From the IMG/VR virus record IMGVR_UViG_3300024272_002379: a stretch of 64,000 nucleotides of DNA; one strand, written 5' to 3'. The DNA is from a virus. Lineage: Duplodnaviria > Caudoviricetes. Below are positions 311 to 19,751 of this stretch, piece by piece (position 1 is the first letter of the stretch; each line of letters begins with the position of its first letter). The notes beneath the pieces are model-generated. The model saw nothing but the letters and a program-made list of their open reading frames with translations, was not told the DNA's origin and ran no database searches. The translations under genes were made by a program, and so were the position numbers.

Positions 311-685
311 GGGCCTGTAATGGTATCGACAGGGGCATGAAAGTTATGAGTTCGTCCGAGTGGTGACGCTATCACCAACTTTAAAATTAAACGCAAACAG
401 ACCAATGTTAGCGGCTGCCTAGTTGCAGCTACCAAAACACAGTAAGATATTGCTGGTAACTGTTGAGGTTCAAAAACTAGCATAGTATAAGAAGTTCTCT
501 GTATACAACTTAGTGAACAGAGTGGTGGAGCAAGTAAGAAACCTTACTAGCCTAGTATCTCAGGTCTGGAAGACGATAGCCAGTGAGTGAAAGCTGAGAT
601 GAAATAACTCATTTAAGTTCGTAACGACGTAAAGACTTATAATGAATAATGTTTTTGGACACGGGTTCGACTCCCGTCAGGTCCA
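311..685 (+). ncRNA. ssrA: tmRNA, tag ANRPMLAAA* (393-422)
   Basis: 5' GGGCCTG pairs with 3' CAGGTCC-A with G3.U70; T-arm ACGGG-TTCGACT-CCCGT; GCA resume codon and Ala-rich tag. Confidence 0.95.
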
Positions 686-713
686 CTCTATATTACTATA
701 AGGAGACACAAAT

Positions 714-1559: not shown

Positions 1560-1634
1560 CGGAATGTAGTTCAGCTTGGCTAGAACGCTTGTTTTGGGAA
1601 CAAGAGGTCGCAGGTTCGAATCCTGTCATTCCGA
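1560..1634 (+). tRNA. tRNA-Pro(TGG)
   Basis: cloverleaf; CTTGT-TTTGGGA-ACAAG. Confidence 0.95.
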
Positions 1635-1843
1635 CTAAGACTTTTTGTTACCTCTAAGGCATTCTCTTATACGGGTTCCGTATGGGGGATATAAGGAGCG
1701 AGGCGAACCTGAATCTTCCAGTCTCTAAAGAAGAATGAAGTGGCGTTTATGGTTATTATTTCCTTTGTACGACAACAAAGAAATTTAATTCTTTTTCATT
1801 TTTTGGTGTTCCTTTAGGAATAAAGCTGTCTAACGACAGCTAA

Positions 1844-1923
<80 letters not shown>

Positions 1924-2010
1924 TTTTCAAAACGCCATAGTTTTGGAAAACCTCGTTTGTGTAAAAAATCATCGAACCTGGCAGTGTATAGGTTAACTGC
2001 CACCCCACAT

Positions 2011-2083
2011 GCCCCAATTGCACAGTTGGTAGTGCGACTGATTTGTAATCAGTAGGTCGGCGGTTCGAGTCCGTCTTGGGGCT
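2011..2083 (+). tRNA. tRNA-Thr(TGT)
   Basis: ACTGA-TTTGTAA-TCAGT. Confidence 0.95.
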
Positions 2084-2520
2084 TTGTTACATAAGCATTT
2101 ATGCCCTAAGTAGCAGATAGACATAAATGTGTAACAAAACGATGGTCTGCTATAATCGGTAAAGTTGTTCTATCCTGTATAGAGGTTATTGGGTCCGATT
2201 CAGGTAAAACTAACGAAACAGGACGATTTATTGGCGTACTTTAGTGAAAGCAGAGTCGAGTAACTAAAGAGAAAATCAATACCCAGTTCATCATTCTTTC
2301 TGGGTTACGTGAGACGTTAGTATGGTCTCGCCGTAAAGATTAAGCTGTGATATAGTATCAAAGCTATATTGCGGAATCAGGTAGGATATTTATATCAGAC
2401 CTAACGTATACATAAGTTAAAACGAAGGTAATCCAACAGTGAACCGCAGTACAGAAGGTGGGCCTAGTGTTTGTAATACAAAGTTAGACCGTGCGGGGCT
2501 AATGCATGTTTCTTATGATA
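2084..2520 (+). ncRNA. large structured RNA between tRNAs (possibly ROOL-like)
   Basis: ORF-free, many hairpins (TTGTTACA/TGTAACAA, ACCCAG/CTGGGT, GAGAC/GTCTC), tRNA-island context; family not verified. Confidence 0.45.
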
Positions 2521-2528
2521 CGGTATAT

Positions 2529-2611
2529 GCAGCGTTGTGATAATGGTAGTCGGGCGGTCTTGAAAACCGTTGTGTCGAAAGGCATTGGGAGTTCAAGTCT
2601 CTCACGCTGCG
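2529..2611 (+). tRNA. tRNA-Ser(TGA)
   Basis: GCGGT-CTTGAAA-ACCGT, long variable arm. Confidence 0.93.
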
Positions 2612-2750
2612 TTTGGCTAAGCATAGGTAGCCGTACCCAGATGACGAAACGACAGTCGTCATATAACAAGCCTATTGCAGTTTATCATGTACTAAACATG
2701 AAGGCTCTTCTGTTTTAGATGCCAGTCTGTGCAGGAGGGCCGAAGTCTCT

Positions 2751-2839
2751 GGAGTGTTACTCAAGTTGGTGAAGAGGGAACCCTGCTAAGGTTCTAGCGT
2801 CCATTATGGGCGGCGAAGGTTCGAGTCCTTCACACTCCG
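2751..2839 (+). tRNA. tRNA-Ser(GCT)
   Basis: GAACC-CTGCTAA-GGTTC, long variable arm. Confidence 0.93.
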
Positions 2840-3105
2840 TTAAGGCTGAAGTGCAATGCTAAATTTTTATGTAATAGCACGCCCGTAAAAGACGTTGAGG
2901 TTGAGGACAATGAGTATGGAAGTGGCCTTTCGAGGCCTAACACGAAAGTTTGACAATAAGTACCGAATGCATAAGATTGACCCATCTAAATGCTACGTCA
3001 GTGGGAGGAACTTATGTAAATACGTTGATACTACGAAGAAGTATCTGCTTGGAAAACGAATAGGTCATTCCCGTTTCTAGCATTTCTGTACGAAAACAGA
3101 ATTAA

Positions 3106-3199
3106 CGGAAGGTAGCCTAGTGGCTAGGCTTGTTGCGAAAAAACGGGTGAAAGCAACTGGAAACGCCGTTTGACGTGAGTTCGAATCTCACTCTTCCGT
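3106..3199 (+). ncRNA. tRNA-like RNA with pseudoknot replacing the anticodon arm
   Basis: acceptor CGGAAGG/TCTTCCG, D-arm, T-arm GTGAG-TTCGAAT-CTCAC; GTTGC/GCAAC crossing AAACGG/CCGTTT. Confidence 0.65.
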
Positions 3200-3379
3200 C
3201 TATATCATCAATATCAACTTACAACAGCCATGGTAATGTTGTGAGAGCGTCATAGGAAGACGTTCTTCCTACTTCAAAGAGACTGGAGTATGCAACAATA
3301 GCTGATGAGGCTCATGACCCCATAAATTGCAGGATAAATAAACAGCGTCTGCTGAAAGATGACAAAGATGATATTATTT

Positions 3380-3453
3380 GGACCATTAGCTCAGTTGGTC
3401 AGAGCGGTCGGCTCATAACCGATTGGTCCTTGGTTCGAGTCCAAGATGGTCCA
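3380..3453 (+). tRNA. tRNA-CAT, probably Ile2 (lysidine type)
   Basis: GTCGG-CTCATAA-CCGAT; GGACC acceptor like Firmicute tRNA-Ile2. Confidence 0.88.
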
Positions 3454-3503
3454 CTAAGAACTCAATACGCCTCTTAACAATGCGGACCACGTTGAGTCAA
3501 AAA

Positions 3504-3628
3504 CCTGGGGGAGCTGTGGCAAGCAGCCATCTGATAAATGGTGAGTTAAAATATGAAGATACTTTATATCGGCATATTACTATGGTGAAAACCCATTCAT
3601 TAACTAGGTTCGATTCCTGGCTCCAGGA
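3504..3628 (+). tRNA. atypical tRNA-Ile(GAT) with ~61-nt variable-region insertion
   Basis: acceptor CCTGGGG/CTCCAGG, anticodon arm GCCAT-CTGATAA-ATGGT, T-arm CTAGG-TTCGATT-CCTGG. Confidence 0.6.
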
Positions 3629-3783
3629 CTATAATGCCTAACGGCATTAATATGGAATAGAAACCCCAATCAATTCCGTGTCAAACGAATTTCAAGACTA
3701 CCAGGGGGAACCTAACAAGGCTGTTATTTGTGCTGCTTGTGGCGTTAGGCTGGTAGAAGTAACCTACCCCAATTACAATTAAA

Positions 3784-4488
3784 TATTGTGCTTTAAAATG
3801 CACACATATATCCTGGTGAAGATTGTTTAATCAACATGCCAGGGCATATCTACAGTAAGTATGAAATAATATTCGTTACAGGCTTAGCCAGTATGTTTAT
3901 TATGTAATACTGAGACGTATGAGAACATGGGATACTTTGTTCGGTAGTGCGTTTAACGGATATAAATCAAGTCCTAAGGACGTGGTGAAGTTCTGTTATG
4001 AAGAAGGGAACCCTTCAAACGATTGATATGGCGTAACTTATACATAACGATTAGTGTGACATGCTTTTGGTGAACAGAATAGACGCTCTCTGTGAGAGAA
4101 TAACCCTGGGAACTGGATGAGCTGGTAACTCATTACAGATGGCAGGGAATTACCAAACAAGTTCATTCGCTGTGATACCGAGACAACTCGGAGTATAACG
4201 AAAGCATAAGTCGCAAGTAGCCTAAGGCGATAAAAGAGAATATAACAGTGATAAGATGAATGAATGTATCATCAAAACATATTCTGAACGATTCGGGTGA
4301 AAGCTGGAGGTGCCAATCCTTCATGGGTTTTAGACTGATAAAAGGCTGTTAACCTTTATCAGTTGGGGCAAGAAGTATGGAAGTCATGAGCCATGCTCAG
4401 ACTTGTCTCCCCATTCGCATAATAAATCACAATGTATATTTTATAAGATGAATAAAAGTCTATATGGTGTGTGTTTTAAAGCACAATA
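3784..4488 (+). ncRNA. GOLLD-like giant structured RNA
   Basis: 22-bp terminal helix 3784-3805/4467-4488 (2 G.U), ~705 nt, no ORF, in phage tRNA cluster; 3' half resembles GOLLD as I recall it. Confidence 0.7.
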
Positions 4489-4507
4489 CTAACAGCAACG
4501 GAAACTA

Positions 4508-4536
4508 TTGACATTCCATTGCTGTTTTTGTATAAT
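4508..4536 (+). promoter_or_regulatory. sigma-A promoter
   Basis: TTGACA-17-TATAAT, 12 nt before tRNA-Tyr. Confidence 0.85.
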
Positions 4537-4548
4537 TACAATCAATTC

Positions 4549-4632
4549 GGGTAGGTAGACCGTAGTTGGTAGCGGGCCAGACTGTAAATCTGGTGCCTTC
4601 GGGCTCCGTTAGTTCGATTCTGACCCTGCCCA
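4549..4632 (+). tRNA. tRNA-Tyr(GTA)
   Basis: CCAGA-CTGTAAA-TCTGG. Confidence 0.93.
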
Positions 4633-4819
4633 TTTACATCAAGGACGGTTGGTGACAATTTATTTGTCAAAGGGATAAGGGCAATACATGTTACCGCTTA
4701 TCGTGTAGATGTGTAGTGCAAAGTGTATTGGTGTGAGATTGTTTCCATATTAGAGAAACAGCCAATCTTAAATGTGAAATATCTAATTAGAGAAGGATAA
4801 AGTAACAGCTTTGTATTAT

Positions 4820-4891
4820 AGAATATTAGCTTTAACGGCAAAAGCACACGGCTGATAACCGTGGTCAGCGGTTCGACTCCGCTATATTCTG
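4820..4891 (+). tRNA. tRNA-Ile(GAT)
   Basis: CACGG-CTGATAA-CCGTG; AU-rich acceptor AGAATAT/ATATTCT. Confidence 0.85.
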
Positions 4892-5112
4892 TTCTTTGTG
4901 AGTGTGACTACTTACAATGACCTAAAACGGCTCGTAAACTTGTAGAAAGGGCAGGCCGACGGGTAAGAGTGCCGCAAGTACCAAATAACCCTGAGGGTAA
5001 AACTGGGTTCGCCTCTTTTTGAGCACGGGATGCAGAAAAGAATAGACATCTCTCAAAGTTTAGGTAAATAAACAGCTTAGGTTGGTAACCTCTTAGTCAG
5101 AAATAACCATAT

Positions 5113-5185
5113 TGGGTATTAGCTCAGTCGGCAGAGCACATGGCTGTTAACCATGGTGTCGTAGGTTCGAGCCCTACATACCCAG
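5113..5185 (+). tRNA. tRNA-Asn(GTT)
   Basis: CATGG-CTGTTAA-CCATG. Confidence 0.95.
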
Positions 5186-5487
5186 TTTAAATCAAACTGA
5201 AACGAGTCAGGCCCAATCGCTCGATTAAGTATGTGAGGAAAGTGAGGTTGGTTGCCAGCTTACTCAAGACTTCGTGTGCTTGAGGACAGCCCATTTATGG
5301 GTCCCCACTGGTTGTAAAATGTCTTCGCATTTAAAGTGGTGTTGTAAAATACATTCCGCTTAATCTTTAGTTTGGTTTTATTTGGAGAGACATGTTGTAG
5401 CGGTTTCTACGTATGTACAAAGGCTCTGGACAAGTCTTATTTTTTGAAACAGCAAGCGTGCGATTATCAGGTTAGTCTCTCCAGTAT

Positions 5488-5561
5488 AGCGGGGTAGAGC
5501 AGTCAGGCAGCTCGCAAGGCTCATAACCTTGAGGTCATAGGTTCAAATCCTATCCCCGCCA
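5488..5561 (+). tRNA. tRNA-Met(CAT), initiator-like
   Basis: 1:72 A/C mismatch, GCGGGG acceptor, CAAGG-CTCATAA-CCTTG. Confidence 0.88.
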
Positions 5562-6530: not shown

Positions 6531-6999
6531 AGAAATACAAAGCAAAATAGAAATGTGTAGCAAATTGCTTATCATATGGTTTGGACAGGAACGAGACGGT
6601 GTAGATTTTTCCAATCATGATAAAGAGATTAAACAGTTATTCATCTCTCAGGTTTTGCTAAAAAGATTTGAAGTATTTGGTATTAACATTGTTATACCTG
6701 ACCCTTTATTAGCTATCTTATCATGTTGTACGGATAGCAATCCAGGTCAATCTCAGGTTATCCTTAAAGATTTACTGAATCATATTAAGAAAATAAAAGG
6801 TCCAATTCCAGATGGTTATGTTATTCAAAGTATGGACTTCAGTTTGTGCTTCCCTATGAATTTTCCTATTACTGAAATTCCAGAAGTTAATGCTAAATAT
6901 GAATCTATGTGGATTGGTCAGAAAATTGAAAGAACTGGTACTTTTTCATCGGATAATTTATGCGATACTCCTGAATGGTGGAAGGAGGTAATGGAATGA
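6523..6999 (+). CDS. hypothetical protein
   Basis: ORF with RBS, coupled. Confidence 0.7.
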   Translation: MNKEIQSKIEMCSKLLIIWFGQERDGVDFSNHDKEIKQLFISQVLLKRFEVFGINIVIPDPLLAILSCCTDSNPGQSQVILKDLLNHIKKIKGPIPDGYVIQSMDFSLCFPMNFPITEIPEVNAKYESMWIGQKIERTGTFSSDNLCDTPEWWKEVME

Positions 7000-7208
7000 T
7001 AGTAGTTTTAAAAGGAATCATTGGTAGAGGAATTAACGGCGTTGCAGAAATGCGTATAACAACTGATGATGAAATTGACCTTACAAAACCAGTTGTTAAA
7101 TTTAAAGGTGAAATTGAACGCATGGATAGTTACTGGAAAGACCATCCACTTGCAGGAGAAAGAGTATTTACCGTAAAAACAGACAATATTGTATGTTTAG
7201 TAGATTAG
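6996..7208 (+). CDS. hypothetical protein
   Basis: GGAGG RBS, start moved to 6996. Confidence 0.65.
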   Translation: MIVVLKGIIGRGINGVAEMRITTDDEIDLTKPVVKFKGEIERMDSYWKDHPLAGERVFTVKTDNIVCLVD

Positions 7209-7217
7209 GAGGTTAAT

Positions 7218-7559
7218 ATGGCAGATTATACACAAGACTGTTGGAAGTGCCATTGGTGTTGGCTGGGAAGATGTATGGACGGCTCTCACTATGGACAGGA
7301 TGTTTCCGTTAAAAAAGACCAGCCAAAAGACTGCCCAGCATATATTACCAAAGAGGAATGGAATAAAACTTATGTACCACCTATGAAACAAGAACGTTGT
7401 ATGGAACTTTTAAATGCAATGATTGACAACCTATCGGTTGCCGAAAAGTATTCAGAAATTATTAAGCACTTACTTCATATTGGATTTACAAAAGAAGAAC
7501 TGATTAATTACTTTAATTTTACTGAATCGGATATAGAAGAAGCTCTAACAAACAATTAG
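7218..7559 (+). CDS. hypothetical Cys-rich protein
   Basis: CxxCxxC N-terminus, RBS. Confidence 0.7.
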   Translation: MADYTQDCWKCHWCWLGRCMDGSHYGQDVSVKKDQPKDCPAYITKEEWNKTYVPPMKQERCMELLNAMIDNLSVAEKYSEIIKHLLHIGFTKEELINYFNFTESDIEEALTNN

Positions 7560-7572
7560 TAGGAGGTATTAT

Positions 7573-7776
7573 ATGAAAGACCGTATTTCATTTAACATGA
7601 CAAATGGCGATGTATATCGAGACATACACACTATTAATGGAACAAAAGTGAGTACTTTAGAAACTCATCGAGATTTGTCAGCAATTGTCGATTCATGCGA
7701 TAGGATATGTATTGAGTTTTCTCATTCAGGCAGTGCTATCGTTAAAACATCATGCATTTCCTCTATTAATTTATAA
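7573..7776 (+). CDS. hypothetical protein
   Basis: RBS AGGAGG. Confidence 0.65.
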   Translation: MKDRISFNMTNGDVYRDIHTINGTKVSTLETHRDLSAIVDSCDRICIEFSHSGSAIVKTSCISSINL

Positions 7777-7787
7777 GGAGGTACGCA

Positions 7788-8543
7788 ATGAAAAAACATC
7801 TTTATACAGTACTGACCTTTATGGTCATTCTCGTAATATGGTACAATGCATCATTGATTGCAAATCCATTATTCATTCCTAATCCACTAGCAGTGTGGAA
7901 TGATTTTAAAATACTTGTATCAGATGGCTCTATCTTTATTCATCTTATTTATACCTTCAGGAGAATTATGGTTGCTACATGCTTATCAGGACTTGTCGCA
8001 CTACCGTTAGGGTTATTGGTGCGTAATTTCAAAATAGCAAAAGCAACCATTTATCCTGTAATTATGCTATTACGTTATATACCTGTAACAGCATTCTATC
8101 CATTGCTTATTATGTGGGTTGGTATTGAAGAGGAAATGAAAGTAGCTTTTCTGTTTATCGCATGTTTTGTTTACATGCTCCCATCAGTAGTTCTTGCTCT
8201 TGATGAAGTAAACGACCAGCTTATTGATACAGGATTGACTATTGGAATGAGTAAATTACAAACTATCACCAGAATTCAATTACCATCTACATTACCTAGT
8301 ATTATGAACAGTTTTGTTATGATGGTTGGTATTGGCTGGACATATTGTGCAGTAGTAGAAACAATCAATGCCAAATATGGATTAGGCTACGTAATCCATC
8401 AGGCAACCGCTAGAGGTAAAACTGATTTGGTATTCATGGCTATTATTGCCATTATGATTGTTAGCTTTGTGTTTGATAACACTTGTAAATTTTTAATCCA
8501 TAAGGTATTTAAATGGAGGTACGTTAATGATAAAACTAAATAA
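7788..8543 (+). CDS. ABC transporter permease (NitT/TauT/SsuC family)
   Basis: multi-TM, EAA-like loop, VVE..GLGY. Confidence 0.9.
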   Translation: MKKHLYTVLTFMVILVIWYNASLIANPLFIPNPLAVWNDFKILVSDGSIFIHLIYTFRRIMVATCLSGLVALPLGLLVRNFKIAKATIYPVIMLLRYIPVTAFYPLLIMWVGIEEEMKVAFLFIACFVYMLPSVVLALDEVNDQLIDTGLTIGMSKLQTITRIQLPSTLPSIMNSFVMMVGIGWTYCAVVETINAKYGLGYVIHQATARGKTDLVFMAIIAIMIVSFVFDNTCKFLIHKVFKWRYVNDKTK

Positions 8544-9688: not shown

Positions 9689-10435
9689 ATGATTACTTTA
9701 ACACAGATGATTTATGCTACCATAATCATTATTGTGGTAGTGGCATTAATTGTTTCAGGCAAATTACGTGCATTAGGTAAGGCGTTTCTTAATCTTTTCG
9801 TGGAAGATTTAGCGGCATCTCCAGAAGGAGCTGAGGCTTTATTTAACCAGAAAATTGAAGAAGTTGAAGATAAGTATCGTAAGGCTAACGATGTTTTCTC
9901 AAGAATCGCTGGTGAACGTACAAACTGCAAGAAACAGGTAGAGAATTTAAACGCTAGATTAAAAAGAGTAGAGTCTGTTTGTGAACAGTTAGCTCAGGCT
10001 CAGGATGTAGAAAGTTTAAAAATTAAAGCTTCTGAACGTGCAGAAATCGTAGAAGAAATTAAGCTTCATGAAGAAACATTAGTAACACTTGAAGCTGCAT
10101 TAAAAGACGCAACTGAAGCAAGAAATGCTTGCGAAGAAAATCTTAACGAGCTGAGAAAACAGAAGAAACAGGTTGTTACAAAGATGAAACGTAACAGAGA
10201 TATGAAGGCAGTTTATGATGACCTTAATGGCATCGGTGCTGGTGACCATACTTCTAAATTACTTGATAAAGTAATTGAAAGAGGTACTGATTTAAACAAT
10301 CTCGTTACAGGTTCCAAAGAGGCTTATGATTCTAAGACCTCTACAAAATCAAGAAAGATTGACCAGAAACTCAGTGCTTCTGAAAACGATGCATATGTTC
10401 AAAGTTTACTGGGCAAGTACAGCAAAAAGTCATAA
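9689..10435 (+). CDS. PspA/IM30-like coiled-coil protein with N-terminal TM
   Basis: TM helix followed by a long coiled coil of PspA-like length. Confidence 0.6.
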   Translation: MITLTQMIYATIIIIVVVALIVSGKLRALGKAFLNLFVEDLAASPEGAEALFNQKIEEVEDKYRKANDVFSRIAGERTNCKKQVENLNARLKRVESVCEQLAQAQDVESLKIKASERAEIVEEIKLHEETLVTLEAALKDATEARNACEENLNELRKQKKQVVTKMKRNRDMKAVYDDLNGIGAGDHTSKLLDKVIERGTDLNNLVTGSKEAYDSKTSTKSRKIDQKLSASENDAYVQSLLGKYSKKS

Positions 10436-10453
10436 CATCAGGAGGGAATTATT

Positions 10454-12049
10454 ATGAAACAGTACAGAATTACAGGTAAGGCAAAAATTTTAATCATTGT
10501 CTTTGTTATTGTAGTATTGGCAGGACTTATCGGCGGTGGCTTAAAAACAGGCCTTATCAAAAACGACATCAAAGATGGTGGTAGTAATACAGTAGTATCT
10601 CAGGACAGCAATACAGGTTCTAACAAAAAAGAAGAATCTAATGCTACAGTAAAACCAGAAGTAACAGATACAATTAACCTCTCATTAGATGAGTGGATTG
10701 GTTGGAAATCTATTGTAGATGCTAATGGTGATTTAACAACAGATGCAGAAGAAGCTTTTGCTTTAATGGGTATCAATGTAAACATTCATGTTATGAATGA
10801 TGCCACACAGTCAAGTAATGCATTAATCAAAGGTGATTTGGATGCTGCTGGTTATACAATCAACAGAACTGCATTCTTATCTTCTAAGTTTAAAAATGCT
10901 GGCGTAGATGTTGTAATGCCATTCATTACTAACTATTCTAACGGCGGTGACGGTATTATCGCAAAATCAAGTATCAAATCAGTTAATGACTTAGTTGGTG
11001 CTAAAATCGGTGTACCAGAATTCTCTGAGGCTCAGACATTAGTTGTTTGGTTTGTAAACAATTCTAACTTAACTCAGGCAGAAAAAGATACAATTATCGA
11101 CAATCTTATTATGTTTGCAACTCCAGATGAAGCCGCTAAAGCGTTCTTCTCAGGACAGGTTGATGTAGCTGCTACATGGGAACCATATTTAACACAGGCT
11201 GAAAATATGACAGATTGCCATATCTTATTTAGTACAGCAAGTTCTTCAAATCTTGTAATGGATGGTATCTTATTCCGTAAGGATTTCGTAGATGCTAATC
11301 CAGAAACTGTAGAAAAATTCATTATGGCTTGTTTAATGGCTGCTGATAAATATGAAACAGATTTCGATGCAATCAGAAAAGTTATGCCTATGTATTCTAC
11401 AATGTCTGATGAAGACATTAAGGCAAACTGTGTTGCTGCTAAGTTAACAACATGGAAAGATAATGCTGATTTATTAAACGGAACTGCTAAGATTATGTAC
11501 ACAGACATGTGTGAAGTATGGCAGTCTATCGGTGAAGAAGTCGATGCAAGTATCGTAGATACTTTATTTGATGATAAATACATTCAGAATATCGCTTTTA
11601 ATTTCAGCAGTACAGATTCATCTTATGATACAGGTAAAACTCAGGTAACAGAAGAGAATAAACAGATTATTGCTGATACACAGGCATTACTTGGCGGTAC
11701 AGCATCTGTAACATTCGAGAAGAATACAGCTAAATTCTCTGATTCTGCCGCTGCTTCTGCTGAACTTAATAAGTTTATTGAAATGGCAAAAGTACTTGAC
11801 GGTGCTATTATCGAGATTGCTGGTAATACAGACCCAAATCCTAACAGCGACCCTCTCGATGAGTACAATAAGAAATTGTCTTCTCAGAGAGCTGAAGCTG
11901 TTAAGAATTACTTCATCATGAACGGTATTTCTGCTGATAGAATTGTTACGGTTGGTAACGGTTCAAGCAATCCTATCGTTGATAACGATACAGAAGAGCA
12001 TCGTGCAATGAATCGTCGTACAGACGTATCATTTAAAATTATTGAATAA
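10454..12049 (+). CDS. ABC substrate-binding protein fused to OmpA/MotB-like peptidoglycan-binding domain
   Basis: SNGGDGIIA, DVAATWEPY; C-terminal GNTD..YNKKLSSQRAEAV..NRR. Confidence 0.88.
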   Translation: MKQYRITGKAKILIIVFVIVVLAGLIGGGLKTGLIKNDIKDGGSNTVVSQDSNTGSNKKEESNATVKPEVTDTINLSLDEWIGWKSIVDANGDLTTDAEEAFALMGINVNIHVMNDATQSSNALIKGDLDAAGYTINRTAFLSSKFKNAGVDVVMPFITNYSNGGDGIIAKSSIKSVNDLVGAKIGVPEFSEAQTLVVWFVNNSNLTQAEKDTIIDNLIMFATPDEAAKAFFSGQVDVAATWEPYLTQAENMTDCHILFSTASSSNLVMDGILFRKDFVDANPETVEKFIMACLMAADKYETDFDAIRKVMPMYSTMSDEDIKANCVAAKLTTWKDNADLLNGTAKIMYTDMCEVWQSIGEEVDASIVDTLFDDKYIQNIAFNFSSTDSSYDTGKTQVTEENKQIIADTQALLGGTASVTFEKNTAKFSDSAAASAELNKFIEMAKVLDGAIIEIAGNTDPNPNSDPLDEYNKKLSSQRAEAVKNYFIMNGISADRIVTVGNGSSNPIVDNDTEEHRAMNRRTDVSFKIIE

Positions 12050-13015: not shown

Positions 13016-13516
13016 ATGGCAATAGTAGGAGAATGGATACCACAGTCTGGCTACAAAGGTAAAGCAGATGCAAACAAAGTAGCTTACGAAATTGAAACCA
13101 TTGGAATCAGTAACACTACGGATGAGTTTAATACTCAGGAAATGGTAGATTATGCTCGTAATAATCCAGGGTCAGAATTACATAAGTTATTTGAATGGAA
13201 CGATAGCGTTGCTGCTGAAGCATATCGAAATCAGCAAGCACGAGATATTTTACGTTTCTTAAAAATTACTGTTGTTGATGATACGACTCAGACTAAAAAT
13301 CCTACATTAGTTAGGTATTTTGTTAGTACTGGTAATCATGATGGTATGTATAAGAAAACAGAACCTATATTCCAGAATGCTTCAGAAGCAGATAGGGTAT
13401 TAGAAAATATGAGAAGAGACGCTGAAAACTTTATTAATAGATACAAAGCATATCTCAGTCTCAATCCAAATTTATCTAACGCTATTACAGCTTTACAGGC
13501 AGTTGTTAATCCTTAA
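13016..13516 (+). CDS. conserved phage protein adjacent to RAMP gene
   Basis: VDYAR..SELHKLFEWNDSVAAEAYRNQQAR motif; RBS at 13016. Confidence 0.7.
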   Translation: MAIVGEWIPQSGYKGKADANKVAYEIETIGISNTTDEFNTQEMVDYARNNPGSELHKLFEWNDSVAAEAYRNQQARDILRFLKITVVDDTTQTKNPTLVRYFVSTGNHDGMYKKTEPIFQNASEADRVLENMRRDAENFINRYKAYLSLNPNLSNAITALQAVVNP

Positions 13517-13523
13517 GTTTTAT

Positions 13524-14238
13524 ACCTTGCTGTATATATATTGGCTTTAATTGGTCAATGAAAATACAACAAATTAGGACAAACCAATCCAGCAGAGAAC
13601 ATTATCAGCATACTACAGGACATAAGCAGGATAGGACATCACAAACGGCTCGTTAGAGCCTTTATATATACAGCAAGGTTGTTGTATAAAGCTCATTATA
13701 GGACAGAATAGCTCATAGCAGATGATATCATTAAAATACATAATAACACAAAGTCTTTTATAATCTCTTATATGTATATCGACTTTAAATGCTTAGAGTC
13801 AATATACATGTAAGAGAGGACAGGACAACTCAGTGCATTTCTACCACAACAAATGACAATGTATAACAAAGCAGAGGGGCGATTTTCGCCCCATTTTTAT
13901 GAATACATATATTGGCTTTAATGGTCAATAGAACAATACAGTGCAGAGCAGTATATAATAGCTCAGTTAAGAATACCATAGCATAACACAAATGGCTCTT
14001 AGAGCCTTTATATGTGTTCATAAATAGATATATTGACTTTAGCAGTCAATAAGCTCAAAAGACCGTAGAACAGGACAGCTCATTACAAAGTAGTTCAGGT
14101 TAAAACAAGCGAAAACAAAGGCTCGTTAGAGTCAATGTATGTGTTTATGAAACACAAAAGCACAAAGACAGCATAATACATGTCAGTGCAACATAGGATA
14201 TTACAAATCATTACAAAATCCTATTGAAAATCAATAGG
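13524..14238 (+). repeat. array of six 5-nt-periodic (NYA-NN)n tracts in repeated hairpin scaffolds; putative guide-RNA array
   Basis: invariant A every 5 nt over 80 units; repeated scaffold arms ATATYGRCTTTA...TTAGAGYC inside long inverted repeats. Confidence 0.9.
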
Positions 14239-14256
14239 TAGAAAGCGAGACGCATT

Positions 14257-14913
14257 ATGGCAGCTAAAGTTACAGAAGAAGTAAAAGAGATTCAGAACAA
14301 AATTAATTTCGCTACAGCAACAATTACAATTGTTGGCGATAGTGACCTTATTCTTAACAAAATGAGAGATAGCACTACTCAGGAACTTGCAGATAAACAG
14401 GAAGGTAAAGTACAGGGTACAAAGAAACCTGTAAACATGTACGAGCATCTTGTTGGTTCCATTCATTGGCTCAAGGGAGAAGAAACAGACTATACAGAAG
14501 AAGGCTGGTTGAATGCATTAAAGAATAATGTTCCAGGTTATCCATCTTCAGGTATGAAGAAAGCATTATGTGATGCTGTTGTTCGTGTATTAGGCGAAAC
14601 ATATAGCACAAAGTTCAATGCTAACGTACAGATTCTTAATAGCTTCTTACCAATCGAATTTGGTTCAAGTGCTTATGATAAATCATTATTTAGCCCTCAG
14701 AAGGGTAGTCCAGTTCTTTGTTACAGAAATGTATTCAGAGATTGGAAAACAACATTTACAATTAAATATATTCCAGACAATTATTCATTAGACCGTATCA
14801 TCGAAGTTATTAACTGTGCAGGTTTTGCATGTGGTATCGGTAGCCACAGACCATCAAGTAAAGGTGGCTCCAACGGTATGTTCCACGTAGAATCCGTTAT
14901 GGAAGTAGTTTAA
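14257..14913 (+). CDS. stand-alone Cas7/RAMP-like RNA-binding protein
   Basis: beta1 ITIVGDSDLILN, PSSGMKKAL, YRNVFRDW, C-terminal Gly loop AGFACGIGSHRPSSKGGSNGMF. Confidence 0.8.
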   Translation: MAAKVTEEVKEIQNKINFATATITIVGDSDLILNKMRDSTTQELADKQEGKVQGTKKPVNMYEHLVGSIHWLKGEETDYTEEGWLNALKNNVPGYPSSGMKKALCDAVVRVLGETYSTKFNANVQILNSFLPIEFGSSAYDKSLFSPQKGSPVLCYRNVFRDWKTTFTIKYIPDNYSLDRIIEVINCAGFACGIGSHRPSSKGGSNGMFHVESVMEVV

Positions 14914-14921
14914 GTACATAT

Positions 14922-15650
14922 GGGAAGGAAAACCCTATAATAAACCGCTAAGATGAAGGCAGACCAAGGCTGTTGCAGGACCTGAAAAGGCGTTCGCACT
15001 TAGATGTAATAAAAGCGAAGATTAGGAGACTCATATGCAAAACCCTGACATATGACATGGAGAAATACCGTTGAATGCAACCAGGTAGTTAAGATTTTAT
15101 ACCGACAGAAACGACCGTTACTGCGTAGCTCAAAGTCGGAAGTTTACTTAATTGAAATAAAAAACAAATAGAGAGCAAAGGTAACAGCTAAGATATTACG
15201 ACCTCATGGGTGCCAACCACGCACACGAATCCGTATTAAATCTGACGTAGAGGCAAGTTCACTTAGATGCAATCAAGAACTTTAGCGTGGGTGCTTCACA
15301 ACTGCATAAATATTTTGAGAAGGAAAACTCGCTATCAAACCGCTAGGTTATGGGTCCCTTACCATGTTTAAAGACCTTGAACTCCTAGAGCGTAAGCATT
15401 TGTAACAAAAGTTTTAAAATTGAATAGTGGCTTTAGTGGTTTGATGGAAACCATCTCCCAGGAGGGGACTGGTGCGAATGAACCCAGGAGACAGGACTAA
15501 CTCCTTACACCAGCGAGTCTTGAATTAGACCGCTCGGAGAAACGATGCCCAGCTAAGTTTTCAGAGGGATAAGGTATGCTTTGCAGGAAACCCTCGGTGC
15601 TGTTTGCCTATTTCTCCTACCAGGCTTCTTAGATGCAATAAAAAGACCGA
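14922..15650 (+). ncRNA. array of five related pseudoknot-like RNA units
   Basis: repeated GCTAAG...CTTAGATGYAAT with variable 36-70 nt inserts. Confidence 0.65.
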
Positions 15651-15871
15651 TAAAACAAAATAGGATATAGTTGGTAATATACGTAGTTTCGGGTTCGAGG
15701 AACCATTTTCTGTACCATCCACAGGAATAAACGAAGAGGAATTACAAGTACATTGGCGACAAGGTGTGCGAACAAAGACGACCATTACAGTCATTCATGG
15801 TTAATCGTGTACAAAATGTATGAGAGTATCATATGCACTGCTCTCATACTACTTGTCGAACGAAATAAGTA

Positions 15872-15899
15872 TTGAAATATTTTTCAAATCTGTTACAAT
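15872..15899 (+). promoter_or_regulatory. sigma-A promoter (extended -10)
   Basis: TTGAAA-16-TACAAT with TG; precedes tRNA-Gln. Confidence 0.6.
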
Positions 15900-15912
15900 A
15901 TATAACACATAT

Positions 15913-15984
15913 AGGGCTATCGCCAAGCGGTAAGGCACAGGATTTTGATTCCTGCATCCGTTGGTTCGAATCCAACTAGCCCTG
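15913..15984 (+). tRNA. tRNA-Gln(TTG)
   Basis: CAGGA-TTTTGAT-TCCTG. Confidence 0.93.
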
Positions 15985-16069
15985 TTCATAGTGGTCAGTG
16001 TTAATGCACACTGTAAATAAAGTAGCCTCTCGATTGGCTTTCAATGGTCAGCTTTAACCACTATAACAT

Positions 16070-16244
16070 ACACGGGTTGTCTGAGCTGGTGAGAGATGAT
16101 ATCTTATCAATAGGCCAGTGAACTAGGTGCCAACCACTCTGATTAGAGTAGGGACATGTGAAAGTTATAAGGGAAGGAACGCTGATACGTAGCATTGTTT
16201 TGGTAACTTGATGAGTAGTAGAGGTTCGATTCCTTGCCCGTGTG
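16070..16244 (+). ncRNA. tRNA-like RNA with ~100-nt insert in place of anticodon arm
   Basis: ACACGGGT/GCCCGTGT acceptor, GAGG-TTCGATT-CCTT T-arm, CTTATCAA/TTGATGAG helix. Confidence 0.55.
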
Positions 16245-16259
16245 TTAAAGACCAAGCAA

Positions 16260-16332
16260 AGGTAAGTAGCTCAGTTGGGAGAGCACCCTGCATTGAGCGG
16301 GGTCGTCGCAGGTTCGAGTCCTGCCTTGTCTT
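16260..16332 (+). tRNA. atypical tRNA (loop CATTGAG, nominal TTG; identity uncertain)
   Basis: canonical D/T arms, A at position 33, two G.U in acceptor. Confidence 0.6.
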
Positions 16333-19345: not shown

Positions 19346-19751
19346 GTTTAATATTTACGCCGTTGCTTACGGCATTAATCCAGAAACAAAACAACCTACA
19401 TTCTGTCATAAATTTCGTACATGGGATGAATGTAAACCTTATGTAGTTGGAGTTGAGGGAGCGAAATACAAAGGATTCTTCACTGAAACCGAGGCTGATA
19501 TGTGGTTGGAAAAAACTGTTCAGGATTTGGTTCAGGTTAATGAAAAAGACAAAGAAACTGAATATGTACCAGCTATTGAAATCATTGCTGCTCATGGTGT
19601 GGATGAATTTGAGGTACTGTGTGCTAATCTTCACTTAGATTCTCATACCGTTACACAGTTTCTTAAGAAGCAGTTTGTTGAGCAATACAGATTCCTTTGT
19701 GATAATACAATTGATGTATCTGATATATCAACTAAAACATCAACCGAATAA
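19338..19751 (+). CDS. RNase H1 N-terminal hybrid-binding (viroplasmin) domain protein, no catalytic domain
   Basis: YAVAYG..FRTWDECKPYVVGVEGAKYKGF..EA..WL. Confidence 0.8.
   Translation: MAKFNIYAVAYGINPETKQPTFCHKFRTWDECKPYVVGVEGAKYKGFFTETEADMWLEKTVQDLVQVNEKDKETEYVPAIEIIAAHGVDEFEVLCANLHLDSHTVTQFLKKQFVEQYRFLCDNTIDVSDISTKTSTE

What the first reader, a model, noticed from the sequence alone, without database searches (positions are those of the whole stretch)
13559..14217. The variable dinucleotides read as codon positions 1-2: a wobble-skipping guide code
Seen: joining the NN units as NN-x codons gives protein-like text in all six tracts. The first base is G in 33/80 units and C in 5/80, the skew expected at codon position 1. 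Decodes: A (K/N)(Q/H)(K/N)G(K/N)(I/M)A(D/E)(L/F)ALGYGGS; B A(F/L)G(D/E)AY(D/E)Y(F/L)(I/M)YT; C GGTV(F/L)PT(C/W)(I/M)Y(K/N)(D/E); D (D/E)(I/M)V(D/E)VYAV(D/E)PAT; E A(K/N)P(D/E)GA(F/L)(K/N)VG(K/N)(R/S); F (R/S)A(I/M)(C/W)VTG(F/L)(K/N)(F/L). The base after NN does not supply the third codon position (it would give TAA in tract A). Inference: the guide reads two bases and skips one, in register with conserved coding motifs, so synonymous changes cannot escape it. A + strand RNA has sense polarity, so it would pair with the template DNA strand rather than mRNA.
Basis: partly seen in the sequence, partly recalled or inferred. Interest (0 to 1): 0.95.

Follow-up and report, generated by a model that had tools for sequence, protein, structure and literature searches.

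The report
Phage VIPR guide-RNA array, AYA-type
The six five-base-repeat tracts are guide RNAs of a phage VIPR system, a CRISPR-like weapon first described in 2026 preprints, whose variable base pairs read the first two bases of each codon in conserved genes of rival phages and DNA-modification systems; this copy uses a different fixed triplet from the published ones.

Summary
This scan has also met VIPR loci before on other DNA.

The region 13517-14256 holds six tracts of 12-16 pentamers, NN-A-Y-A. It lies between a conserved 166-aa gene (13016-13516) and a 218-aa Cas7/Csm3-fold protein (14257-14913). That protein is homologous to Vipr proteins of phages carrying canonical NN-GGY arrays.

- **Tract A:** nine NN units written as NNx codons gave more than 108 viral contigs, all in frame in the family-A polymerase motif RQKGKIAELALGYGGS. 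Six further units not in the query also fit.
- **Tract B:** the same test gave more than 120 genome contigs, 119 of them in HsdM (GDAYEYL).
- **Baseline:** five equally long patterns from tracts C-F gave 0, 1, 0, 0 and 0 viral hits.
- **Phase:** over 93 parsed tracts from related loci (112 searched), the skipped base is codon position 3 in at least 83% of 805 local hits.
- **Tract F:** antisense to DndB-family genes.
- **Tract C:** tentatively antisense to C5-methyltransferase motif X.
- **Tracts D and E:** unresolved.

What is new here is the G-free AYA scaffold, the stem-bracketed cassettes and the targets in DNA-modification genes.

The parts
13016..13516 (+). Conserved 166-aa gene, candidate vipr-accessory protein (vap)
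   Evidence: A homologue lies upstream of the array in 82 of 83 related loci, at a median of -1131 nt from the vipr start. Alignment A2. AF2 pLDDT 82. No significant fold or Pfam match; the only weak rows are winged-helix/forkhead-like at E>1. phrog_15946.
13517..14256 (+). vrRNA array: six guide tracts separated by long stems and hairpins
   Evidence: Non-coding gap; no Rfam family. The same 600-750 nt gap with NNxYA tracts is present upstream of every homologue examined.
13524..13679 (+). Cassette 1: 27-nt arms (13524-13550 and 13653-13679) enclosing tract A
   Evidence: Inverted repeat I1, 89% complementary. RNA fold -47.7 kcal/mol, z -6.35.
13562..13643 (+). Tract A, 16 units; units 2-16 spell QKGKIAELALGYGGS of family-A DNA polymerase (sense)
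   Evidence: More than 108 viral contigs, all in frame. 74 of 107 match all 15 units. The non-queried units match in 103, 105, 106, 107, 91 and 74 of 107. Target ORF is PF00476 DNA_pol_A.
13647..13660 (+). 3' hairpin after tract A (GGCTC-GTTA-GAGCC, then a T-rich run)
   Evidence: Terminator-like site. Equivalent hairpins follow tracts D and E: 13994-14006 and 14120-14133 (read from the D5 repeat).
13686..13750 (+). Tract B, 13 units; units 2-11 spell AFGDAYEYL(I/M) of HsdM (sense)
   Evidence: More than 120 genome contigs, 119 of 120 in HsdM context ...GKxxGEFYTP. Nine units match in 120/120 and the tenth (GC) in 33/120. The first unit and the last two match in 0/120. Target ORF is PF02384 plus PF12161.
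13764..13817 (+). Hairpin 2 ('empty cassette'): 25-nt arms with a 4-nt loop
   Evidence: Inverted repeat I2, 88% complementary.
13813..13873 (+). Tract C, 12 units; tentatively antisense to C5 DNA methyltransferase motif X (QVGNAVPPL)
   Evidence: 9/12 units (19/24 nt) at motif X of a PF00145 gene, and 7/12 at the same motif in two others. Shuffled unit order reaches this in 0.2% of 1000 trials. No exact target in viral contigs or in 401 Bacillota genomes.
13876..13892 (+). G+C-rich hairpin followed by a T run, terminator-like on the + strand
13896..14024 (+). Cassette 3: arms 13896-13921 and 13999-14024 enclosing tract D
   Evidence: Inverted repeat I3, 85% complementary with U-G wobbles on the + strand.
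13926..13990 (+). Tract D, 13 units; target unresolved
   Evidence: One exact viral hit, 11/13 units, in an RcpC/CpaB-like ORF. This is at the chance level for the pattern.
14017..14151 (+). Cassette 4: arms 14017-14041 and 14127-14151 enclosing tract E; its 5' arm overlaps the 3' arm of cassette 3
   Evidence: Inverted repeat I4, 84% complementary.
14048..14117 (+). Tract E, 14 units; target unresolved
   Evidence: 0 exact viral hits. No local match above controls.
14150..14215 (+). Tract F, 13 units; units 3-12 antisense to FKPVTQMALA of DndB-family genes
   Evidence: Of the 36 metagenome hits to the 9-unit core, 10 contigs (9 from human gut) read FKPVTQMALAH or LKPVTQMALAH on the opposite strand. 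A tenth unit not in the query also matches. Three ORFs tested are PF14072 DndB. About a dozen other hits lie in the abundant motif NPFNPVTxIAF.
14220..14238 (+). Hairpin after tract F, just before the vipr ribosome-binding site
14257..14913 (+). vipr: 218-aa stand-alone RAMP (Cas7/Csm3 fold) with a C-terminal glycine-rich loop
   Evidence: AF2 pLDDT 81.7. Foldseek top hits Csm3/Cmr4/type VII Cas7, E 1.6e-6. VIA-align Z 11.0-8.6 to Cmr, Csm3 and Cas7 chains. More than 180 homologues, one carrying PF03787. G-loop in alignment A1. hhalign 95% and 90% to Vipr genes beside NN-GGY arrays.

Best explanation
This is a VIPR locus of a large phage; near-identical vipr genes sit on contigs of about 210 kb. 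It has three parts: a vap-like gene, six vrRNA guides and the vipr gene.

Each guide is a run of 12-16 pentamers, NN-A-Y-A, followed by ACAAA and a hairpin. Several guides are enclosed by 25-27-bp stems.

By homology with the solved SUSP1 system, one Vipr protomer binds each pentamer. It buries the fixed triplet and presents the two variable bases. The filament then pairs these NN steps with one strand of double-stranded DNA, skipping every third target base. Binding blocks transcription.

Because the skipped base is the codon wobble position, a guide written against a conserved protein motif hits diverged genes and cannot be escaped by synonymous change.

The guides here are aimed at:
- the family-A DNA polymerase of a widespread group of (pro)phages (A);
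- the type I methylase HsdM (B);
- a DndB-family DNA-modification gene (F);
- tentatively a C5 cytosine methylase (C).

Shown here: the repeat anatomy, the gapped matches and their codon phase, the RAMP fold, homology to Vipr, and conserved synteny.

Inferred from the preprints: + strand transcription, filament assembly, DNA binding and silencing.
For: - Five equal-length patterns from C-F gave 0, 1, 0, 0 and 0 viral hits.
- **Units left out of the queries also fit:** for A, in 103, 105, 106, 107, 91 and 74 of 107 targets, where chance is about 1 in 16.
- **Codon phase:** 671 of 805 local hits skip position 3; reversed-order controls give 74 hits with no phase preference.
- **Nucleic-acid recognition, not peptide:** one tract in a related locus runs through the polymerase stop codon with a TA unit, and other tracts are antisense.
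- **Convergence on one module:** 93 parsed tracts from related arrays (112 searched) hit the same target module. They match three polymerase motifs, the Enc34-type SSB, DUF2800 and, on two or three 7-unit hits, VapE; HsdM recurs in L234 and L240.
- **No self-targeting in the window**.
- **RAMP fold and G-loop**.
- **Homology to Vipr genes beside NN-GGY arrays on the vipr strand**.
- **Conserved three-part synteny** in 82 of 83 loci.
- **Published mechanism** for GGY-type VIPR.
Against: - The fixed triplet is A-Y-A, not GGY, and matches none of the variants named in the preprint text (NNNGG, YNNNG, NNNNG). The residues that hold G1, G2 and Y3 in SUSP1 Vipr therefore cannot work the same way.
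- Tracts D and E have no confirmed target, and C reaches only 75% of units, below the 80% threshold used in the preprint.
- Silencing hsdM after entry would not obviously protect the incoming genome. The biological purpose of the modification-gene guides is unclear.
Confidence: 0.9

Rival explanations
1. The guides are read from the - strand, as U-R-U-NN units. Tracts A and B would then be antisense to their target mRNAs, and the Csm3-like protein would act on RNA as type III CRISPR backbones do.
For: - The closest folds are Csm3 and Cmr4, which are RNA-targeting backbones.
- On the - strand the triplet U-R-Y resembles GGY in its second and third positions.
- Most resolved tract families are sense on the + strand.
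Against: - Stem mismatches are G:T 228 against A:C 111 in 98 distinct helices. That fits + strand RNA, though related helices and mutation bias are not controlled for.
- Terminator-like hairpins with T runs follow the tracts on the + strand.
- In the canonical loci ESCO56 and LESphi2, the NN-GGY arrays lie on the vipr strand.
- On the + strand, the base next to NN is the best conserved and the farthest base the least, as in the published variants.
- Tracts of both polarities coexist, which fits dsDNA targets.
- Published VIPR binds dsDNA on either strand.
Confidence: 0.06
2. The tracts are binding sites or sponges for a multimeric RNA-binding protein. Candidates are a TRAP-like ring reading about 12 spaced triplets, or CsrA reading the many GGA/ACA motifs. 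The variable bases would carry no information.
For: A 5-nt period with a fixed triplet and about 12 units resembles TRAP sites. The tracts are rich in AGGACA.
Against: This cannot explain why the variable bases of A and B reproduce 15 and 10 consecutive codon positions 1-2 of conserved motifs in hundreds of genes. It also cannot explain why related arrays hit other motifs of the same genes.
Confidence: 0.01
3. The resemblance of the NN series to protein motifs is chance or an artefact of A-rich sequence.
For: A-rich coding DNA gives many weak 5-nt-periodic false positives with a loose detector. D and E have no target.
Against: - The baseline for 18-base gapped patterns is 0-1 hits in viral contigs, against more than 108 for A.
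- All hits are in one frame of one protein family.
- Flanking units also match.
- Local search gave 805 real against 74 control hits.
Confidence: 0.005
4. It is a degenerate or mini CRISPR array served by an orphan Cas7.
For: Cas7 fold; stems between guides could look like repeats.
Against: - There is no repeat-spacer structure.
- Guides are internally periodic at 5 nt and match targets only with one base skipped.
- No other cas genes are nearby: the flanking ORFs scanned had no Pfam family or none related to cas.
- The protein is single-RRM-sized (218 aa) and groups with Vipr genes.
Confidence: 0.01

Closest known systems
VIPR systems, type II of Escherichia phage SUSP1 and a Pseudomonas fulva prophage (bioRxiv 10.64898/2026.04.26.720920; structures in 10.64898/2026.04.26.720927; biology in 10.64898/2026.10.15.759431)
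   Same: - A small stand-alone RAMP next to an accessory gene.
- Guides of 9-16 tandem pentamers with two hypervariable bases.
- Targets matched with one base skipped, and the skip on the codon wobble position.
- Targets on either DNA strand, no self-targeting, and targets in competing mobile elements.
- A structured 3' end after each repeat tract.
- Detectable protein homology: hhalign 95% and 90% to Vipr genes of ESCO56 and LESphi2.
   Different: - The fixed triplet is A-Y-A with no G at all, instead of GGY or the named variants NNNGG, YNNNG and NNNNG.
- All six guides sit upstream of vipr, between vap and vipr.
- Three guides are enclosed by 25-27-bp stems, there is one 'empty' hairpin, and two cassettes share overlapping arms.
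- The 3' ends are simple hairpins, and no pseudoknot was sought.
- The accessory protein has no recognisable fold.
- Resolved targets include HsdM, a DndB-family gene and tentatively a C5 methylase. The preprints held here do not contain the words methyltransferase, restriction-modification or hsdM.
Class 1 CRISPR backbones: Csm3/Cmr4 (type III), Cas7 of types I, IV and VII
   Same: RRM core, thumb and glycine-rich loop; one protomer per fixed step of the guide; bases flipped at regular intervals.
   Different: - The step is 5 nt, not 6.
- Three guide bases are hidden and two are read, rather than one hidden and five read.
- The target loses one base in three.
- There are no repeat-spacer array, Cas5, Cas6, Cas10, Cas11 or adaptation genes.
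- Guides are hard-wired rather than acquired.
Other VIPR loci met earlier in this scan on other DNA (CGC-type e1-3282847, GTC-type e1-3414384, YNNNG-type e1-3308816)
   Same: Pentamer-periodic guide arrays in phages, some with non-GGY fixed triplets. They suggest that the fixed triplet varies between lineages (those notes were not re-tested here).
   Different: Here the triplet is AYA, Vipr and a conserved accessory gene are both present, and targets were identified directly.

Membership tests
VIPR (Vipr + vrRNA) | Small stand-alone RAMP protein with RRM core, thumb and glycine-rich loop | tested here: met
   AF2 model pLDDT 81.7. Foldseek E 1.6e-6 to Csm3. VIA-align Z 11.0 (rmsd 3.7, 155 aligned) to Cmr and 10.6 to Csm chains. 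G-loop GFGxGIGSGRSSGYGRYHV is conserved.
VIPR (Vipr + vrRNA) | Sequence homology to Vipr proteins of recognised VIPR loci | tested here: met
   tblastn E 3e-7 to LESphi2 and 1e-3 to ESCO56, an Ounavirinae phage as SUSP1 is. hhalign probability 90% and 95%. Both genes are flanked by NN-GGY tandem arrays. The authors' own sequences were not on hand.
VIPR (Vipr + vrRNA) | Guides of 9-16 tandem pentanucleotide repeats with two hypervariable positions | tested here: met
   Six tracts of 12-16 units. 1500 five-nt units in 93 tracts of related loci; positions 1-2 are variable and positions 3-5 constrained.
VIPR (Vipr + vrRNA) | Conserved GGY in each repeat (or the named variants NNNGG, YNNNG, NNNNG) | tested here: not met
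   The fixed triplet is A (66%) - C/T (85%) - A (97%), with G at 10%, 4% and 1%. No GGY-type run occurs anywhere in the window. Fig. S17 of the preprint ('a related consensus') could not be seen.
VIPR (Vipr + vrRNA) | Targets matched by the one-nucleotide-skip rule, with skips on codon wobble positions | tested here: met
   Only the one-base skip was tested against collections; skips of 0, 2 and 3 were not compared.
VIPR (Vipr + vrRNA) | Targets on either DNA strand, no self-targeting | tested here: met
   Sense guides are A and B. Antisense guides are F, C and two polymerase tracts of related loci. No tract matches the window above shuffles.
VIPR (Vipr + vrRNA) | Adjacent accessory gene (vap1-6) | tested here: inconclusive
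   A conserved 166-aa neighbour is present in 82 of 83 loci, but it has no fold or family match.
VIPR (Vipr + vrRNA) | Structured 3' tail after the repeat tract | tested here: inconclusive
   Every tract ends in ACAAA followed by a hairpin, and cassette 1 folds with z -6.35. Transcript ends are unknown, and no covariation model was built.
VIPR (Vipr + vrRNA) | Vipr-vrRNA filament that binds dsDNA and silences transcription | not testable with these tools
   Needs RNP purification, binding and reporter assays.
CRISPR-Cas class 1 | Repeat-spacer array with contiguous spacers, plus Cas5/Cas6/large-subunit genes | tested here: not met
   No direct-repeat/spacer structure. The flanking ORFs scanned have no Pfam family or none related to cas. 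Matches exist only with a skipped base.

The most novel reading that the evidence does not exclude
A large gut-phage lineage of VIPR has replaced the GGY scaffold by a G-free A-Y-A scaffold, which implies a rebuilt RNA-binding pocket. It also points part of its hard-wired guides at host-type DNA-modification genes (hsdM, dcm-like, dndB-like). VIPR would then serve as a counter-defence or as a way of stripping rivals of their protective modification, not only as a silencer of rival phage regulators.
Probability: 0.4. Interest if true: 0.7.

Novelty: new variant of a known kind. Interest (0 to 1): 0.55.

Why it matters
The noncontiguous, wobble-skipping guide code is only months old in the literature and rests on GGY-type systems of Proteobacteria phages.

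This locus shows the same code on a different fixed triplet, in a family with more than 180 protein clusters from metagenomes. The code is therefore separable from the GGY-specific contacts seen in the cryo-EM structures.

It also gives unusually clean natural targets: 15 consecutive codons of a polymerase motif and 10 of HsdM. These could serve directly as test substrates.

The presence of methylase and DndB-family targets raises a testable question: do phages use VIPR against DNA-modification systems of hosts or of rival elements?

Tried and rejected
- **Rfam:** no family in the region.
- **Tandem Repeats Finder:** sees nothing there, because the units vary.
- **blastn of the array against isolated phages:** no match.
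- **No whole genome is held for the window**.
- **Early ideas dropped:** CsrA sponge, TRAP-like ring site and MazF ACA decoy were abandoned once the NN series proved to match coding motifs.
- **Third base of each unit as codon position 3 or as a wobble partner:** rejected.
- **Tract C:** exact patterns gave 0 viral hits twice. At most three mismatches in 401 Bacillota genomes gave 4 hits against 5 for the backwards control.
- **Tracts E and F:** exact 18-base patterns gave 0 viral hits. F was resolved only with the core shared by relatives, in metagenomes.
- **Tract D:** the single hit is in an RcpC-like ORF and is at chance level.
- **First local scan:** timed out and was replaced by a gapped-word index.
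- **First frame classifier:** misassigned hits near gene ends and was replaced by a longest-ORF rule. That rule still misassigns part of the short SSB gene.
- **Fold search of the accessory protein:** nothing significant.
- **Supplements of the preprint:** not held.

Full report
**What is in the sequence**

Between a 166-aa gene (13016-13516) and a 218-aa gene (14257-14913) lies 740 nt of non-coding DNA with no Rfam match.

It contains four long inverted repeats whose outer arms differ between copies but stay complementary within each copy. It also contains six A-rich tracts.

A dynamic-programming parse gives 12-16 units per tract, nearly all of 5 nt, of the form NN-x-Y-A. In the window, position 5 is A in 77 of 77 five-nt units, position 4 is C/T in 66 and position 3 is A in 50. 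Position 1 is G in 33 and C in 7.

A strict detector finds no such tract elsewhere on the + strand of the window.

I wrote the NN series as NNx codons and searched public collections for exact matches.

Every hit is in one frame of ...RQKGKIAELALGYGGS....

The six units left out of the query match the flanking codons in 103, 105, 106, 107, 91 and 74 of 107 targets. In 74 targets all 15 units fit. The ORF is a family-A DNA polymerase.

Nine units of tract B hit more than 120 genome contigs. Of these, 119 lie in D(A/L/V)(F/L)GDAYEYL(I/M)...GKxxGEFYTP of HsdM.

Five patterns of the same information content from tracts C, D, E and F gave 0, 1, 0, 0 and 0 viral hits. That fixes the chance level.

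No tract matches the window itself above shuffles.

**Comparative evidence**

The 218-aa protein has more than 180 relatives. All loci examined carry a 600-750 nt gap with the same kind of tracts upstream.

I searched 112 distinct tracts (the six of the window and 106 decoded from related loci) against a local collection of polymerase, HsdM and array loci, using a gapped-word index. This gave 805 hits, against 74 for the same units in reversed order.

The skipped base is codon position 3 in 617 sense and 54 antisense hits. Most of the remaining 111 are one SSB motif near a gene end, misassigned by the ORF rule. Controls show no phase preference.

Tracts of other phages hit further motifs of the same target module:
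- FQFYGANRTGRWAGR and SVGALKAMGALEMGL in the polymerase;
- the polymerase C-terminus ADGYETDFYKKD, with a TA unit on the stop codon;
- FYAFNSNGNKGIACGL in an Enc34-type single-strand-binding protein;
- KLVEGRS in DUF2800;
- two tracts antisense to the polymerase.

L234 and L240 carry their own HsdM tracts.

The third base of each unit says nothing about the target's third base: 21.3% identity against 22.5 +/- 1.5% when shuffled.

**The other tracts of the window**

The core that F shares with two close relatives hit 36 metagenome contigs. Ten of them, nine from human gut, read (F/L)KPVTQMALAH on the opposite strand, with a tenth unit also matching. Three ORFs tested are DndB-family. About a dozen other hits fall in the very common motif NPFNPVTxIAF.

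Tract C aligns antisense to motif X (QVGNAVPPL) of C5 methyltransferases at 9 of 12 units. Shuffled orders reach this in 0.2% of trials. I call this tentative.

D and E remain unassigned.

**The proteins**

The AF2 model of the 218-aa protein (pLDDT 81.7) matches Csm3, Cmr4 and other Cas7 chains: Foldseek E 1.6e-6, VIA-align Z up to 11.0. The family has a C-terminal glycine-rich loop.

tblastn finds distant relatives in isolated phages. Those of Escherichia phage ESCO56 (Ounavirinae) and Pseudomonas phage LESphi2 score 95% and 90% in hhalign. Both are flanked by NN-GGY tandem arrays on the gene's strand.

The 166-aa upstream gene is conserved in 82 of 83 loci, but it has no recognisable fold.

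**What is known**

A literature search found three 2026 preprints on VIPR systems. They describe:
- a stand-alone ancestral RAMP (Vipr) and an accessory gene (vap);
- vrRNAs of 9-16 YNNGG repeats and a one-nucleotide-skip rule;
- skips on wobble positions and dsDNA targets on either strand;
- transcriptional silencing, and targets in rival phages and satellites.

The cryo-EM work shows one protomer per repeat, the GGY bases buried and the NN bases presented.

The locus meets every testable defining feature of VIPR except the GGY triplet. Earlier agents of this scan have also met VIPR loci on other DNA, some with non-GGY triplets.

**Strand**

Four things favour + strand RNAs:
- Mismatches inside 98 distinct helices are G:T 228 against A:C 111.
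- Hairpins with T runs follow the tracts on the + strand.
- Canonical arrays lie on the vipr strand.
- The conservation gradient of the triplet matches the published variants only on the + strand.

This is inference; no RNA data could be obtained.

Cassette 1 folds into a long stem enclosing tract A (z -6.35). Stems of 25-27 bp could be processing sites, for example for RNase III, but that is speculation.

**Verdict**

The locus is a VIPR system with a G-free A-Y-A scaffold, a stem-bracketed array and an unclassified accessory protein. Its guides are aimed at a phage replication module and at DNA-modification genes.

It is a new variant of a kind described in 2026, not a new kind.

Noticed in passing
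window 311-688, 1560-5561, 3788-4481, 15913-16332: tmRNA, twelve tRNA genes and a full-length ROOL RNA (231 bits) lie in the same window. This is typical of a large phage genome.
   Followed up: no
window 9689-12049: A PspA/IM30-like protein (below the Pfam cut-off) is followed by a 531-aa protein with an NMT1-type substrate-binding domain and an OmpA domain. Both have near full-length PHROG matches of unknown function.
   Followed up: no
window 13735-13755, 13975-13993, 13630-13646: Tracts end in a shared ...A(T/A)AACA(C)AAA junction before the hairpin. The last two units of B (TA, AC) match 0 of 120 HsdM targets, so the final units are probably part of a fixed 3' junction, not of the guide.
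   Followed up: partly
L234:3463-3622 against L007, L012, L104 and others: A guide of a related phage matches the last 12 codons of the polymerase gene and continues over the stop codon with a TA unit. This shows recognition at the nucleic-acid level.
   Followed up: partly
L350, L337, L347 (about 1.57 kb from the tract F site); L349: The contigs carrying the DndB-family target of tract F are also hit, at another site, by 7-unit words of guides from unrelated arrays (L309, L273). Several VIPR lineages may converge on the same element.
   Followed up: no
L333, L334, L340, L342-L344, L351, L354, L358, L359, L362: The core of tract F also matches the very abundant motif NPFNPVTxIAF on the opposite strand. 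From memory this looks like the C-terminal sorting signal of Bacteroidota secreted proteins. It may be coincidental or an off-target class.
   Followed up: no
L237:2609-2959 and 6631-8223: In one related locus the VIPR module sits next to a Tad4-family gene and near a reverse transcriptase with a faint bAvd-like neighbour. That is an anti-defence and diversity-generating neighbourhood.
   Followed up: no
window 14914-15900: About 1 kb downstream of vipr has no + strand ORF of at least 50 aa and no pentamer tract of AYA or GGY type. Its content is unexplained.
   Followed up: partly
window 19589-19655 (- strand): This is the only other stretch passing the strict pentamer detector. It is probably a chance match in coding DNA.
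   Followed up: no
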